From: an uncultured Candidatus Rokubacteria bacterium
GTDB taxonomy: Bacteria; Methylomirabilota; Methylomirabilia; Rokubacteriales; CSP1-6
NCBI GenBank assembly: GCA_963747235.1
Contig: CAVVEU010000013.1
Coordinates: 288,001-352,000 of the forward strand
Direction of reading: 5' to 3'
DNA: 64,000 nt
Shown in pieces: positions 6,265-31,365 of the stretch. Position 1 is the first letter of the stretch. The number at the start of each line of letters is the position of its first letter. Below the pieces are notes generated by a model. It saw nothing but the letters and a program-made list of their open reading frames with translations. It was not told the DNA's origin and made no database searches. Both the position numbers and the translations under genes were made by a program.

Positions 6265-6552
6265 ATGCCACTCACACGATTCGGCTTCATCGTGACCGGC
6301 GATGACTTCGTGCAGTGGACCGGGACCGAGCGTTTCCGCATGAAGGTGGTGGGGGTGCGGAGCCCGGAGCAGGGGATCGCGGCCGCGCGGGAGATGGTGG
6401 CGGAGGGCATCCAGCTCATCGAGCTCTGCGGCGGGTTCAGCCCGGTCTGGGCCGGGAAGATCATCGAGGCCATCGACTACGCGGTGCCGGTCGGCGTGGT
6501 GGCCTACGGCCCGGAATCCATCAGCGGGATGGCGCGGCTATTCCCCGGGTGA
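6265..6552 (+). CDS. DUF6506-like small protein
   Basis: GIQLIELCGGF and VPVGVVAYG motifs recalled for this family. Confidence 0.6.
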   Translation: MPLTRFGFIVTGDDFVQWTGTERFRMKVVGVRSPEQGIAAAREMVAEGIQLIELCGGFSPVWAGKIIEAIDYAVPVGVVAYGPESISGMARLFPG

Positions 6553-7695
6553 GGGTGGCCGCGCGGCTTCCTGCAGGAGCAGCAGGATCACCGCGGTGGT
6601 GACCAGGCAGGACCCGATGACCTCGAGCCCGACGTACGTCGCGAGCAGGCCGGTGACGCCGGGAATGGCCGCGACGCCGAGATAGGCTCCCGCCACCTGG
6701 AAGCCAATGGCCGACGTGGCATGCGCGTGCCCCAGGCGCGCCGGCGTCTCCGCGATCAGCGTGGGAAAGATCGGGGCCAGGGCGAAGCCGAGCGCGGCCA
6801 GCCCGACCGGCCCGGCGCCCATGCCCGGATCCCACCAGATCAGCAGCGCGCCGGCCAGGGCGCCGACCGTGCCGATCCGGAGGAGCGCATTCGCGGCGAG
6901 CCGGCTCGCGAGCGCGCCGGAGACGACGCGGCCGGCGGTGAGCGCCGCCCAGTAGATCGCGATCCAGATGCCCGCGGCGCCCGCCGCGATCCCGCGCGCT
7001 TCGGTGAAGAGGCTGTAGGTCCACTGGCCGGCCGTGACCTCGAGGCCCGCGTAAACGAAGAAGAGGGCGACGTTCAGCCAGACTCGCGGCCGGCCCAGCG
7101 TGTCGAAGAGAGAGGCCGCGCGCTCGGGTGCCGCGCCTGGGGAGGCCGGATCCTGGCGCGCCATCGTCCACAGGGGGATCGTGACCAGGAAGCTCACCGC
7201 CATCGCGGCCAGCAGGACGCCGATCACCGCGTAGCCCCAGCGCCACGCGAGGCCCGAGGCGAGGACCGCGGTCATGAGGAGTGGGCCGAGCATCGCGCCG
7301 ACGCCGTAGCAAGCGTGCAGCCAGCTCACCAGGCGCGGCGAGAACCGCACGGCCGCGAAGGCATTGATGCCGGCGTCGATGGCGCCGGCGCCGAGCCCGG
7401 CCAGCAGGCCGGCCGCGACCATCACGCTCCAGGCCGGAGCGAGCGCGTAGGCGAACGCGTTCACGACCATCAGGACGCTGCTCCAGAGCAGCAGACGCCC
7501 GACGCCCAGGCGCGCCACCAGCGCGCCGCTGCTGAAGCTCGAGACCAGATAGCCCACCATGGCCGAGGCGAGCAGCGAGCCGAGCTGACCCGGGGGAAGG
7601 CCGAAGGAACGGCGGATGGAGGGCCACGCCACGCCGAGCACGCCGTCCGGGAGCCCCAGGCTGACGAAGGCCAGGAGCGCGATGGCGAGGAGCAC
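6538..7695 (-). CDS. MFS transporter
   Basis: About 12 hydrophobic helices; SLGLPDG..GVAWP, GAGAIDAG.N, APIFP. Confidence 0.9.
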   Translation of the reverse strand: MLLAIALLAFVSLGLPDGVLGVAWPSIRRSFGLPPGQLGSLLASAMVGYLVSSFSSGALVARLGVGRLLLWSSVLMVVNAFAYALAPAWSVMVAAGLLAGLGAGAIDAGINAFAAVRFSPRLVSWLHACYGVGAMLGPLLMTAVLASGLAWRWGYAVIGVLLAAMAVSFLVTIPLWTMARQDPASPGAAPERAASLFDTLGRPRVWLNVALFFVYAGLEVTAGQWTYSLFTEARGIAAGAAGIWIAIYWAALTAGRVVSGALASRLAANALLRIGTVGALAGALLIWWDPGMGAGPVGLAALGFALAPIFPTLIAETPARLGHAHATSAIGFQVAGAYLGVAAIPGVTGLLATYVGLEVIGSCLVTTAVILLLLQEAARPPSPGE

Positions 7696-7799
7696 GATGC
7701 GGCGGGCCCCTCGGCGGACTAGGCGGTCGCCGTGACGGAGTAAATCGGGACGGCCTCGCGCCGGGTCTTGAGCTGAGTGGTCCTCGAGCGCCGCCCGGT

Positions 7800-8297
7800 C
7801 TACTCGGCCTGGCTCCGGAAGGTCACGGTCTCATCGCCGACCCGCACCCGGGCGTCCCAGGTGATGTCGATGGCGCCCTGCACGCTCTGGTGCGCCGGGC
7901 AGCCCTGCGGGTGCAGCGCCAGCGCCCGCTCGGTCGCCTCACGAGCGTCCGCGGGCACCGCGAGCTCGTAGTGCATGTGGATGGACTTGATCCGGATGGT
8001 CTTGCCGACGCCGACGATGCGGCCTTCCACGGTGGCCACATAGCCGTCACGGTCGAACGCGATCTTGCGCCCTGCCAGGGCGCCGCGCAGCGTGCCGTAC
8101 ATTCAGCCGGCGACGGCCGCCACGATGTGGTCGAGGGTGGAGGCGACCGGCGGGCCCTCCGCGACGCCGTAGTACTCGCGCAGCTTGCCCTGCACGCCGT
8201 AGACCACCGGGGCGGGGACTTCGCCCAGATAGGCGTGGCGATAGCCGTGCCGGTACTCGAGACGGGACTGGGAGACGTATTCGAAGTCGTCGGGCAT
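7800..8297 (-). CDS. OsmC-like protein with in-frame UGA (predicted selenocysteine, codon 65)
   Basis: ORFs 8103..8348 and 7800..8102 are in the same frame separated only by TGA (8103-8105): AAVAG-U-MYGTL; second Cys in GCPAHQS; AAGGAGG RBS before ATG 8297. Confidence 0.8.
8058..8087 (-). promoter_or_regulatory. putative bacterial SECIS hairpin
   Basis: mRNA after UGA: CGCG-GCGCCCU-GGC-AGGGCGC-AAGAU-CGCG; G-initiated apical loop 27-29 nt after UGA. Confidence 0.55.
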
Positions 8298-8411
8298 GGA
8301 GACCTCCTTGGGTTGATTGAGACGTGCCGCGTCTACCTTAGCAGCCAAAGGAGCAAGGAGGCCGGCTTGAGCTGGACCGCAACACGCCTAGCATGCGGCC
8401 GGAGGTGTGCC

Positions 8412-8855
8412 ATGTCGGCCGAAGCGAACAAGGAGCTGGTCCGTCGAGTCCTGGCCGAAGTGCGAGATGGGTGGACACAGGCGGCAATCGACCAGTTCTT
8501 CGCGCCGGACTACCGCCGCCACCTCACGCCGACGGGTCCGCATCTCACTCGCGAGGAGCAGCGGGAGCGGGCTTCGCGGCTGCGGGTCGCCTTTCCCGAC
8601 GCCGATGCCGCGCTGGAGGACATCGTGGCCGAAGGAGACCGCGTGGCGTATCGGTTGACCATTCGCGGAACGCATCGAGGTTCCTTCCTCGGTGTCGCCC
8701 CGACCGGCCGGCGCGTGGTGGTCTCGTTGTTCGCGATCGTCCGCATCGAGAACGGCAAGCTGGCCGAGGAGTGGGGCGGCCTCGATCAGGTGGATCTGCT
8801 CCGGCAGCTCCGAGAGCCGGGCGAGCCGCCGAGAATGTGGGAATGTAAGACCTGA
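8412..8855 (+). CDS. SnoaL-like ester cyclase / NTF2-like protein
   Basis: NKELVRR, AFPD, IVAEGDRVA, GTHRGSFLGVAPTGR, ENGKLAEEW; GGAGG RBS. Confidence 0.88.
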   Translation: MSAEANKELVRRVLAEVRDGWTQAAIDQFFAPDYRRHLTPTGPHLTREEQRERASRLRVAFPDADAALEDIVAEGDRVAYRLTIRGTHRGSFLGVAPTGRRVVVSLFAIVRIENGKLAEEWGGLDQVDLLRQLREPGEPPRMWECKT

Positions 8856-9595
8856 CCCCGGGGCTGGCGCGTGGCATGATGGCTCCATGGCGGGGGCGGA
8901 GCGGGCGGTGGGGCTGGCGATCATGGCCAAGGCCCCGCGGGTTGGGGCGGTGAAGACGCGGCTCTGCCCGCCCTTGCGGGCTCCGGAGGCGGCCGAGCTG
9001 GCGCGGTGTTTCTTGCTGGACACCGTGGATCGGGTGCGGGTGGTCGCCGGAGCCCGGCCGATCATGGCGTACGCGCCGGTGGAGGCGCAGGGCCAGTTCG
9101 AGGAGGCCGCGCCCGGCTTCGCGCTGATCGCTCAGCGTGGCGGGGACCTGGGCGAGCGGCAGCTCCACCTGATCGAGGACGTCCTCGGGCTGGGCCTCCA
9201 GGCCGCGCTGGTGATCGGGACGGACTCGCCCACGCTGCCCCGCGAATGCCTGGACGAGGCGGTCAGCCTCGTGATGGCCCCCGACGTGGACGTGGTCCTC
9301 GGCCCCACCGAGGACGGTGGCTACTACTTGATCGGGATGCGCGCGCCCTATCCCGCTCTGTTCGAGCACATGCCCTGGAGCACGCCCACGGTGCTCGGCC
9401 GCACGCTCGAGCGTGCCCAGCGCCTGGGCCTCCGGGTGGCCTGCCTGCCCACGTGGTTCGACGTGGACACCGGCGCCGATCTCGAGCGGCTGCGGGTCGA
9501 GCTGGAGGCGGCGCCGGGCGCCTCGCCCCGTCAGACCCGGGCGTTTCTCGAGCGCCGAATCGTCTGCGCGGTCTCCGTCGTCAAACCCGTCAATC

Positions 9596-12247
<2,652 letters not shown>

Positions 12248-31290: not shown

Positions 31291-31365
31291 GCGGGCGTGG
31301 CGCAACGGTAGCGCACGAGCTTCCCAAGCTCGGGGTTGCGAGTTCAAATCTCGTCGCCCGCTCCA
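31291..31365 (+). tRNA. tRNA-Gly (CCC)
   Basis: Acceptor GCGGGCG/CGCCCGC, anticodon arm CGAGC-TTCCCAA-GCTCG, T-loop GTTCAAATC, encoded CCA; TTGACT-16-TAGAAT promoter upstream. Confidence 0.96.

What the first reader, a model, noticed from the sequence alone, without database searches (positions are those of the whole stretch)
7800..8297. Hidden selenoprotein: OsmC-like redox protein with UGA at the catalytic Cys position and a SECIS-like hairpin
Seen: two ORFs abut in one frame across a single TGA (8103-8105), giving STLDHIVAAVAG-U-MYGTLRGAL and a later GCPAHQS; a GC-rich hairpin with a G-starting loop lies 20-36 nt after the UGA. Known: OsmC/Ohr proteins use two Cys in these positions, bacterial Sec insertion needs an adjacent downstream SECIS, and OsmC-like selenoproteins have been reported. 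Inference: one 165-aa Sec enzyme that standard callers split in two. Unlike the indel-type breaks elsewhere in the window, this one keeps the frame.
Basis: partly seen in the sequence, partly recalled or inferred. Interest (0 to 1): 0.8.

Follow-up and report, generated by a model that had tools for sequence, protein, structure and literature searches.

The report
Selenocysteine OsmC-fold peroxidase gene, miscalled as fragments
This is one gene for a small antioxidant-type enzyme whose catalytic cysteine is replaced by selenocysteine, written as a TGA "stop" codon, so gene callers cut it in two; the kind of protein is known, but this branch of the family is not covered by current annotation models.

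Summary
On the minus strand, one frame runs from ATG 8297 to TAG 7802-7800 and is interrupted only by TGA 8105-8103 (codon 65). The 165-residue product is an OsmC/Ohr-fold protein.

The TGA is very probably selenocysteine:
- The genome has tRNA-Sec (anticodon TCA), selA, selB and selD.
- TGA sits at the same column in 30 of 30 orthologues read codon by codon, down to about 37% identity.
- In a scan of 201 genomes of the phylum, 145 of 150 listed matches carry one TGA, and no full-length match lacks it.
- 26 of 28 full-length database homologues have Cys at that column.
- A 7-bp hairpin with a GGC triloop, 20-36 nt after the UGA, is kept in all 30. It has one compensatory C:G to G:C pair, and it is the least synonymously variable stretch of the gene.

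U65 aligns with the first conserved Cys of solved OsmC proteins and C133 with the second.

OsmC-like selenoproteins have been known since 2005. This clade scores 18 bits against the curated model NF041052 (cut-off 95) and lacks that family's UxxT motif. Public records mostly list it as a 100-residue "OsmC family protein".

Verdict: a real selenoprotein gene and a new member of a known kind. Selenium insertion and enzyme activity are untested.

The parts
7800..8297 (-). Whole gene: 165 codons plus the TAG stop (7802-7800). It encodes an OsmC/Ohr-fold protein with Sec at codon 65.
   Evidence: One frame read with TGA=U. Pfam OsmC PF02566 scores 41.5 bits (cut-off 27.5) over residues 56-147, spanning the TGA. 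The AlphaFold2 model has pLDDT 95.8. The best Foldseek PDB matches are all OsmC/Ohr proteins, probability 1.00, TM up to 0.85.
8303..8309 (-). Shine-Dalgarno sequence AAGGAGG, 5 nt before the ATG at 8297.
   Evidence: Read directly from the sequence. A GGAGG-type motif (mostly AGGAGG or GGAGG) stands in the 20 nt before the N-terminal start in most of the 30 orthologues; the upstream strings are printed. No such motif lies before the internal ATG at 8102.
8103..8105 (-). In-frame UGA, codon 65: the proposed selenocysteine codon, at the position of the first conserved Cys of OsmC proteins.
   Evidence: TGA is at the same column in 30 of 30 orthologues. Cys is there in 26 of 28 full-length homologues. 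The column aligns with the Cys of 'HAGCFS' in 1ukk and 'HAACFS' in 1qwi.
8067..8083 (-). SECIS-like hairpin: 7-bp stem GCGCCCU/AGGGCGC with triloop GGC (8076-8074), 20-36 nt after the UGA.
   Evidence: 96.8% of cells are paired across 27 distinct sequences, against 28-60% when the partner is slid by 1-3 columns. Pair 36/44 is C:G in 16 and G:C in 11. RNAalifold keeps the 5 core pairs in 30 of 30. Codons 72-77 have the lowest synonymous variation of all 6-codon windows in the gene, 0.020 against a gene mean of 0.29.
7899..7901 (-). TGC, Cys133 in GCPAHQS: the second conserved Cys, proposed as the resolving Cys.
   Evidence: Invariant in 29 of 29 rows of alignment A1. It aligns with the Cys of 'GCPVS' in the solved OsmC proteins 1ukk and 1qwi.
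8130..8132 (-). Asp56, nearly invariant, 9 residues before Sec65.
   Evidence: At least 90% conserved in A1 and invariant in A3. The profile position aligns with Glu48 of 1ukk. Its catalytic role is inferred.

Best explanation
The stretch is a single gene (8297 to 7800, minus strand) for a 165-residue OsmC/Ohr-fold selenoprotein. Translation starts at the ATG behind the AAGGAGG. At UGA-65 the SelB.GTP.Sec-tRNA(Sec) complex, recruited by the hairpin 20-36 nt downstream, inserts selenocysteine instead of terminating. Sec65 lies in the long first helix at the position of the first conserved Cys of OsmC, which from memory is the peroxidatic Cys. Cys133 sits at the position of the second conserved Cys, from memory the resolving one. 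The proposed chemistry is as follows: the selenolate attacks a hydroperoxide and becomes a selenenic acid; Cys133 then forms a selenenylsulfide with it; a dithiol donor, lipoyl- or thioredoxin-type as for Ohr/OsmC, reduces that bond. The following are shown here: the single frame, the fold, conservation of the TGA, Cys/TGA pairing with homologues, the conserved hairpin with covariation and synonymous constraint, and the Sec machinery in the genome. The following are inferred: actual Se insertion, peroxidase activity, the reductant, and the homodimeric active site. I put about 0.9 on 'UGA-65 is decoded as Sec' and about 0.55 on 'the enzyme is a hydroperoxide reductase'. The confidence figure given refers to the first claim together with the fold assignment.
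For: Frame and motifs. OsmC domain across the TGA: 41.5 bits against a cut-off of 27.5. Fold: pLDDT 95.8, and the Foldseek PDB top hits are all OsmC/Ohr (1lql, 6ebc, 2onf with TM 0.85, 1nye). Sec machinery in the same assembly: tRNA-Sec at C14:45388-45481, 69.3 bits, ARAGORN anticodon tca; selA at 500 bits and selB at 365 bits directly beside it; selD at 227.8 bits. TGA is an ordinary stop in this genome: the neighbouring SnoaL and DUF2064 genes end in TGA, and 17 of 32 long high-GC3 ORFs in the window do so. Conservation among near relatives: 29 of 41 genomes have the gene, and every match long enough to span the column has one TGA. The column is identical in 30 of 30 loci read by codon. These fall into three subgroups, UMYGT, UMTGT and ULTGT, down to about 37% identity. 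Phylum sample: 133 of 201 genomes have a match at E<=1e-10. Of 154 matches, 150 are listed and 145 of those have one TGA. The 5 without are fragments covering model positions 1-65, 90-155, 99-154, 103-155 and 90-155. Four unpublished genomes (G068, G084, G132, G169) are among the 133, and the claim does not depend on them. Cys/Sec pairing: 26 of 28 full-length homologues have Cys, and 42 Cys-form loci were found, mostly in Acidobacteriota (the search pattern itself demanded Cys). Database hits break exactly at residues 64|66. Hairpin. The two other TGA-bearing OsmC-fold genes of this genome also have G-first triloop hairpins, at nt 24-26 counted from the U of UGA. In subgroup 3 the codon after the TGA is CTC, not ATG. 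Contigs from DNA and RNA libraries bridge the TGA without a listed change there.
Against: There is no direct evidence of selenium in the protein and no peptide spanning U65. Folded alone, the hairpin is no more stable than shuffled sequence (z -0.58). Its covariation rests on one compensatory pair, shared by two subgroups and therefore one or two events; the G-A-L-x-x-R peptide is conserved, and part of the pairing follows from G+C-rich codons. In subgroup 2 a stronger alternative hairpin (7 bp, loop at nt 21-26) competes with it. The RNA-library contigs do not prove transcription (caveat stated). selD appears in two overlapping pieces in different frames in this assembly, so the Se donor gene may be frameshifted or mis-assembled. 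No conserved neighbour points to a reductant: the MFS gene is kept in 1 of 19 other loci and the SnoaL gene in 2 of 19. The family reaches no curated OsmC, Ohr or OsmC_like_Se cut-off, so the peroxidase function is extrapolated from the fold and the two Cys positions.
Confidence: 0.85

Rival explanations
1. Sec is inserted, but the protein is not a peroxidase. It could be another redox or chalcogen-handling protein of the OsmC superfamily, for example a selenenylsulfide/disulfide oxidoreductase or a sulfur/selenium carrier, as for the many OsmC-like (YhfA-type) proteins of unknown activity.
For: The family scores far below the curated cut-offs of the peroxidase subfamilies: OsmC TIGR03562 gives 14-30 bits against 85.8, and Ohr is not reached. 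It has a 55-residue N-terminal part that the Pfam model does not cover. There is no conserved redox partner nearby. The closest structure by TM-score is an uncharacterised protein, 2onf.
Against: Both Cys positions of OsmC are kept, with the second invariant in 29 of 29. Asp56 aligns with the Glu ahead of the first Cys in 1ukk. Arg20 is invariant in A3. From memory, a Cys/Arg/Glu triad defines the Ohr/OsmC peroxidases.
Confidence: 0.3
2. It is a split gene. Translation ends at the UGA and restarts at the overlapping AUG (UGAAUG), giving a 64-residue and a 100-residue chain that assemble into one OsmC fold without any Sec.
For: In the window group and in subgroup 2, ATG directly follows the TGA, a layout typical of coupled genes. 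Gene callers choose exactly this 100-residue ORF.
Against: In subgroup 3 (7 of 30 loci) the next codon is CTC (Leu), so no start is available there. Cys homologues carry M or L at that position, so the Met is simply a family residue. A split would remove the catalytic residue itself, while every uninterrupted homologue has Cys there. There is no SD before the internal ATG. The hairpin is under synonymous constraint.
Confidence: 0.04
3. The UGA is read as a standard amino acid: Trp, Gly or Cys by recoding, a suppressor tRNA or an alternative genetic code.
For: Three database proteins show W at the column (P0002, P0003, P0172) and one shows R (P0122). From memory, Cys can be misinserted by the Sec pathway when selenium is scarce.
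Against: TGA ends the neighbouring genes and is the commonest stop of long high-GC3 ORFs in the window. Homologues have Cys at the column, not Trp or Gly. A complete Sec-decoding set is present. The W calls come from unnamed metagenome gene calls and most likely reflect a TGA=W translation table used by the source; this is an inference and was not checked.
Confidence: 0.04
4. It is a pseudogene (nonsense mutation) or an assembly/sequencing error at one base.
For: The assembly does show frame breaks elsewhere, in selD and a selD-like gene. Two orthologues carry additional defects: L033 has an extra TAG and L043 a frameshift.
Against: The same codon at the same column is found in 30 of 30 independently assembled genomes, and in 145 of 150 listed matches across the phylum. 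Variation between strains falls mostly on third codon positions on both sides of the TGA. Contigs from four runs show no listed change at 8103-8105.
Confidence: 0.01

Closest known systems
OsmC-like selenoprotein of Zhang, Fomenko and Gladyshev 2005 (COG1765/YhfA type; NCBIfam NF041052 OsmC_like_Se; motif UxxT)
   Same: OsmC superfamily fold, Sec encoded by UGA at the first conserved Cys of the long helix, a second Cys about 65-70 residues later, and a downstream hairpin with a G in the apical loop (PMC1088965, passages; PMC9312934 and PMC13188914, table passages). hhalign places the two Sec columns on each other.
   Different: The window protein scores 18.2 bits against a cut-off of 95, and its subgroup relatives score 19.7-22.6 bits. 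The profile comparison is not significant (E 0.09). The motif is U-M-Y-G-T, not UxxT. The N-terminal part has a different length. The same genome carries a true NF041052 member at C17:12526-12957 (151.8 to 160.6 bits, F-U-L-M-T), so the two are paralogous lineages and not one family.
OsmC peroxiredoxins (E. coli OsmC 1qwi/1nye; Thermus thermophilus OsmC 1ukk; TIGR03562)
   Same: Same fold (Foldseek probability 1.00, TM 0.69-0.73). The U65 column aligns with the first Cys and C133 with the 'GCPVS' Cys. Asp56 aligns with the Glu ahead of the first Cys in 1ukk.
   Different: Sec in place of Cys. TIGR03562 gives 14.1 bits against 85.8. There are about 20 extra residues, mostly N-terminal. Sequence identity to solved chains is 9-20%.
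Ohr organic hydroperoxide resistance proteins (e.g. 6ebc, 1n2f, 4xx2; TIGR03561)
   Same: Fold, and two Cys on the two helices. The mechanism proposed here is borrowed from Ohr/OsmC, and the mechanism itself is recalled from memory.
   Different: No significant sequence match to the Ohr model. A lipoyl-protein partner was not sought.
Cys-containing orthologues in Acidobacteriota and other soil bacteria (loci L059-L100; P0121, P0126, P0127 and others)
   Same: Same family: 32-55% identity over nearly the full length, the same N-terminal part, and the same G-C-[ML]-x-G-T and G-C-P motifs.
   Different: TGY (Cys) instead of TGA. On a quick tree the three Sec subgroups lie in three places among the Cys forms. 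The fewest Sec/Cys changes is 4, and well-supported branches force at least 2 (quick search, many long branches).

Membership tests
Bacterial selenoprotein gene (Sec-UGA) | The in-frame UGA is conserved at the same column in orthologues. | tested here: met
   30 of 30 loci read by codon. 145 of 150 listed matches in 201 genomes of the phylum carry one TGA; the column was not individually checked for those.
Bacterial selenoprotein gene (Sec-UGA) | Homologues have Cys at the UGA column. | tested here: met
   26 of 28 full-length homologues have Cys and 2 have W. 42 Cys-form loci were found, though the search pattern required Cys.
Bacterial selenoprotein gene (Sec-UGA) | A SECIS hairpin lies just downstream, with the apical loop 16-37 nt from the UGA and a G in it. 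This criterion is recalled from the bSECISearch model and does not come from any call. | tested here: met
   The triloop GGC starts 27 nt after the UGA. The stem is kept in 30 of 30, with one compensatory pair, G40 of the loop invariant, and a trough in synonymous variation. bSECISearch itself was not available.
Bacterial selenoprotein gene (Sec-UGA) | The genome encodes tRNA-Sec, SelA, SelB and SelD. | tested here: met
   selD matches in two pieces in different frames, so whether it is intact is uncertain.
Bacterial selenoprotein gene (Sec-UGA) | Selenium is actually incorporated into the polypeptide. | not testable with these tools
   This needs 75Se labelling or mass spectrometry.
OsmC/Ohr superfamily (Pfam PF02566) | Profile score above the gathering cut-off. 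| tested here: met
   41.5 bits against 27.5, residues 56-147.
OsmC/Ohr superfamily (Pfam PF02566) | OsmC fold. | tested here: met
   Model pLDDT 95.8. 61 PDB matches at E<=0.001, and the listed ones are all OsmC/Ohr-type.
OsmC/Ohr superfamily (Pfam PF02566) | Two redox Cys at the canonical helix positions. | tested here: met
   U65 and C133 align with the two Cys of 1ukk and 1qwi. C133 is invariant.
OsmC/Ohr superfamily (Pfam PF02566) | A catalytic Arg and Glu complete the active site (feature recalled from the Ohr/OsmC literature). | tested here: inconclusive
   Asp56 aligns with Glu48 of 1ukk and Arg20 is invariant in A3. Their geometry in the model was not inspected.
OsmC/Ohr superfamily (Pfam PF02566) | Homodimer with intertwined active sites (recalled). 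| not tested
   The only attempt, a complex-prediction job, was not accepted.
NCBIfam NF041052 OsmC_like_Se (the published OsmC-like selenoprotein) | HMM score of at least 95 bits. | tested here: not met
   18.2 bits. The own-genome search with this model does not list the window gene at E<=0.001.
NCBIfam NF041052 OsmC_like_Se (the published OsmC-like selenoprotein) | Redox motif UxxT. | tested here: not met
   The window has U-M-Y-G-T, with Thr four residues after Sec. The C17 paralogue has U-L-M-T. The motif is as given in PMC1088965 Table 3.
NCBIfam TIGR03562 OsmC / TIGR03561 Ohr peroxiredoxin subfamilies | HMM score above the cut-off (85.8 / 88.85 bits). | tested here: not met
   OsmC scores 14.1 bits for the window protein and 27.6-30.1 bits for subgroups 2 and 3. 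Ohr is not reported for the family.

The most novel reading that the evidence does not exclude
This is a selenoprotein lineage not yet catalogued. It would be a separate clade of the OsmC superfamily, with the motif G-U-[ML]-x-G-T and a 55-residue N-terminal part, that uses Sec throughout the Methylomirabilota/Rokubacteria-type phylum. It was found in 133 of 201 sampled genomes with no Cys form among them. It has switched between Sec and Cys at least twice, and it is entered in public databases as a truncated 100-residue protein.
Probability: 0.4. Interest if true: 0.55.

Novelty: new member of a known kind. Interest (0 to 1): 0.42.

Why it matters
The gene is systematically mis-annotated. Most public entries for it are 100-residue fragments that start at the Met after the Sec codon, or 64-residue N-terminal pieces. 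NCBI's curated OsmC_like_Se model does not reach it. Adding a model for this clade would correct hundreds of records in a phylum that a 2026 review cites for the largest predicted bacterial selenoproteome (PMC13188914, passage read).

Biologically, it offers natural Sec/Cys pairs at 55-78% identity (P0001, P0121) in a small, well-folded enzyme. That makes it a convenient system for asking what selenium buys a peroxidase of the OsmC/Ohr type, for which, as far as I recall, no Sec form has been characterised biochemically.

Tried and rejected
- **Single-sequence fold of the hairpin**: not better than shuffles, so not used as evidence.
- **Rfam scan of 7700-8400**: only sub-threshold chance matches. 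Rfam holds no general bacterial SECIS model that matched.
- **Promoter/terminator scan of 7500-8600**: nothing found.
- **Gene neighbourhood as a functional clue**: the neighbours are an MFS transporter, a SnoaL-like protein and DUF2064. They are not conserved around orthologues, with MFS kept in 1 of 19 and SnoaL in 2 of 19, so this was dropped.
- **The search for related loci with the 29-row alignment** failed for lack of a conserved stretch. The repeat with 10 rows used a pattern containing Cys, so it could find only Cys forms and says nothing about how common Sec forms are outside the phylum.
- **Homodimer prediction**: the job was not accepted and nothing was learned.
- **Residue tally at column 65 over all stored hits**: the script did not run (after). 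The odd partial hits were inspected with align_proteins instead. Most are frameshifted reads or gene models that skip the region.
- **BSepDB supplement**: the word OsmC does not occur in the one file held, so it could not tell whether this clade is catalogued.
- **Deng et al. groundwater MAG study** (reference 66 of PMC13188914): not found in the library. Its lists may already include this clade.
- **Earlier findings of this scan**: none for this genome.
- **RNA-library contigs**: they bridge the TGA, but by the tool's own caveat they do not show transcription.

Full report
**1. The observation**

The feature is on the minus strand. An ATG at 8297 is preceded by AAGGAGG (8309-8303). The frame then runs to a TAG at 7802-7800 and is interrupted once, by TGA at 8105-8103. 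Table 11 gives two abutting ORFs, 8103..8348 and 7800..8102. With TGA read as U the product has 165 residues, with ...LDHIVAAVAG-U-MYGTLRGAL... and ...HPQGCPAHQS....

Folded alone it is unremarkable for this G+C-rich DNA: z = -0.58, and 55 of 200 shuffles fold at least as well.

**2. What the protein is**

- Pfam OsmC (PF02566) matches residues 56-147, across the TGA, at 41.5 bits against a cut-off of 27.5.
- An AlphaFold2 model built on 29 sequences has mean pLDDT 95.8.
- Its Foldseek matches in the PDB are OsmC and Ohr proteins throughout, at probability 1.00: 1lql, 6ebc, 2onf with TM 0.85, and 1nye.
- A profile of the family aligned to solved OsmC chains puts the U column on the Cys of 'HAGCFS' (1ukk) and 'HAACFS' (1qwi). 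It puts Cys133 on the Cys of 'GCPVS', and Asp56 on the Glu ahead of the first Cys in 1ukk.
- From memory, these are the peroxidatic Cys, the resolving Cys and the active-site acid of OsmC.

**3. Is the TGA a Sec codon?**

(a) Machinery. The assembly holds tRNA-Sec (69.3 bits, cut-off 47; ARAGORN anticodon tca). selA (500 bits) and selB (365 bits) lie right beside it on contig 14, and selD (227.8 bits) is on contig 27. selD matches in two overlapping pieces in different frames, so it may be frameshifted or mis-assembled.

(b) TGA is an ordinary stop here. The neighbouring SnoaL-like and DUF2064 genes end in TGA, and so do 17 of 32 long high-GC3 ORFs in the window.

(c) Orthologues.
- Among 41 near relatives, 29 have the gene, and every match long enough to span the column has exactly one TGA.
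- I read 30 loci codon by codon, and the TGA is at the same column in 30 of 30. They form three subgroups: G-U-M-Y-G-T (the window's group, 77-99% identity), G-U-M-T-G-T (about 46%) and G-U-L-T-G-T (about 38%).
- In a sample of 201 genomes of the phylum, 133 have a match at E<=1e-10. That makes 154 matches, of which 150 are listed. Of the listed ones, 145 carry one TGA. The other 5 are fragments that stop at or do not reach the column. For those rows I did not verify the column individually.
- Four of the 133 genomes are flagged unpublished (G068, G084, G132, G169). Removing them changes nothing.
- No uninterrupted full-length form was seen in the phylum sample.

(d) Cys partners.
- In the 1.8-billion representative library, many hits end at residue 64 or begin at residue 66, which is the signature of split gene calls.
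- I aligned 26 full-length hits picked from the 150 listed, plus P0001 and P0002. Of these 28, 26 have Cys at the column and 2 have W.
- Among the partial hits, one more shows W and one shows R. The rest are frameshifted or skip the region.
- 42 Cys-form loci, mostly Acidobacteriota, were recovered from the species-genome collection, but the search pattern itself contained Cys.

(e) Names attached to the 100-residue fragments point to Methylomirabilota or Rokubacteria-type MAGs.

**4. The hairpin in comparison**

- The 30 sequences align without gaps over 66 columns.
- The 7-bp stem is paired in 96.8% of cells, against 28-60% when the 3' arm is slid by 1-3 columns.
- Pair 36/44 is C:G in 16 distinct sequences and G:C in 11. 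Pair 38/42 is U:A in 16 and U:G in 11.
- 0 of 500 column shuffles reach the observed pairing or covariation score.
- RNAalifold on its own keeps the five core pairs in 30 of 30.
- The compensatory change is informative. Where the 3' arm codon is GCG (Ala) instead of GGG (Gly), the 5' arm Ala codon is GCG instead of GCC, which is a synonymous change.
- Within the window's own subgroup (17 distinct genes), codons 72-77 are the least synonymously variable 6-codon window of the whole gene, 0.020 against a mean of 0.29. The unusual codons GCA and GGG are fixed in 17 of 17.
- The middle loop base G is invariant.

Caveats:
- The covariation amounts to one or two evolutionary events.
- The encoded peptide is itself conserved.
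- Subgroup 2 can form a stronger alternative hairpin with its loop at nt 21-26.

The two other TGA-bearing OsmC-fold genes of the genome also have G-first triloops on G+C-rich stems, at nt 24-26.

**5. Rivals**

- *Termination-reinitiation at UGAAUG.* Subgroup 3 has CTC after the TGA. Cys homologues carry M or L there. There is no SD before the internal ATG.
- *Pseudogene or sequencing error.* Conservation of the codon excludes it. So does the third-position pattern of strain variation on both sides of the TGA.
- *Alternative genetic code.* Point 3(b) above and the Cys column exclude it.
- *Function.* This is the real open question. The family reaches none of the curated OsmC, Ohr or SACOL1771 cut-offs, and it has no conserved neighbour.

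**6. Relation to what is known**

- OsmC-like selenoproteins were described from the Sargasso Sea in 2005, with COG1765 and motif UxxT (PMC1088965, table and legend passages).
- They are the only OsmC entry in two reviews (PMC9312934 and PMC13188914, table passages).
- NCBIfam NF041052 models that family. The window protein scores 18.2 bits against its 95-bit cut-off.
- The same genome has a genuine member at C17:12526-12957 (151.8 bits in the genome scan, 160.6 for the cut-out protein, F-U-L-M-T).
- It also has a third TGA-bearing OsmC-fold gene at C28:39381-39713, at 45 bits.
- Profile comparison of the window family with either paralogue is not significant (E 0.09 and 0.18), although the Sec and Cys columns coincide.
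- So the window gene works like the known OsmC-like selenoproteins but is not a member of the curated family.
- Full-text searches found no description of this clade. The searches were OsmC + selenoprotein, OsmC + selenocysteine, selenoprotein + Methylomirabilota, and Rokubacteria + selenocysteine.
- The groundwater-MAG study cited in the review for a 63-selenoprotein Methylomirabilota MAG is not in the library. The BSepDB supplement held does not contain the word OsmC. Prior listing therefore cannot be excluded.

**7. Evolution**

I built a quick maximum-likelihood tree of 89 rows: 22 Sec forms chosen from the 30, 26 database Cys forms and 41 of the 42 Cys loci. It places the three Sec subgroups in three different neighbourhoods of Cys forms. 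The fewest Sec/Cys changes is 4, and at least 2 are forced by well-supported branches. The tree has many long branches and only SH-aLRT support, so I take this as suggestive only.

**8. Reads**

Contigs of two soil or bog DNA runs and two metatranscriptome libraries cover 8103-8105. Records bridge it: X1 record 6, X15 record 10 and X16 record 11. No difference is listed there; the nearest listed are at 8115 and 8118. However, 41 differences were not shown, and RNA-library contigs do not prove transcription.

**9. Verdict**

This is a real, conserved selenoprotein gene of the OsmC fold that is split by standard callers. It is a new member of a known kind, and its practical value is for annotation. 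Selenium insertion, activity, the reductant and the dimer remain inferred.

Noticed in passing
own genome, contig C28:39381-39713 (minus); locus L048:1486-1872: A third OsmC-fold gene with an in-frame TGA at the catalytic-Cys column (..AIGA-U-RINN.., second Cys in EGCRIS). It scores only 45 bits against NF041052 (cut-off 95). A 9-bp hairpin with a GUU triloop lies at nt 24-26 from the U of the UGA.
   Followed up: partly
own genome, contig C17:12526-12957 (plus); locus L046:1447-1962: A genuine member of the published OsmC_like_Se family (151.8 to 160.6 bits, motif F-U-L-M-T, one TGA). The genome therefore holds at least three OsmC-fold genes with TGA at the active site, plus a Cys paralogue at C2:114758-115135.
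   Followed up: partly
own genome, C27:46033-46945 and C8:303114-303868: selD matches in two overlapping pieces in different frames, and a selD-like gene on C8 matches in three pieces.
   Followed up: no
loci L033 (G014) and L043 (G023): Two orthologues carry extra defects. L033 has an in-frame TAG at codon 110. L043 has a frameshift after about residue 126, with the rest of the protein found in another frame. These are decaying copies or assembly errors.
   Followed up: no
database proteins P0002, P0003, P0172, P0122, P0005, P0133, P0144: Public gene calls of this family show W (three) or R (one) at the Sec column, or skip the region around it altogether. These look like products of other translation tables, spliced gene models or read errors.
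   Followed up: partly
window 6541-7695 (-), 8412-8855 (+), 8884-9648 (+): The neighbours are an MFS transporter, a SnoaL-like protein and a DUF2064 protein. None is conserved next to the orthologues (MFS in 1 of 19, SnoaL in 2 of 19 other loci).
   Followed up: yes
30 orthologous loci: Most orthologues end in TAG. 6 of the 29 loci not cut by a contig end terminate in TGA, although TGA is the commonest stop among long ORFs of the window.
   Followed up: no
window 31291-31365 (+): tRNA-Gly (anticodon ccc), the only tRNA gene in the window.
   Followed up: no
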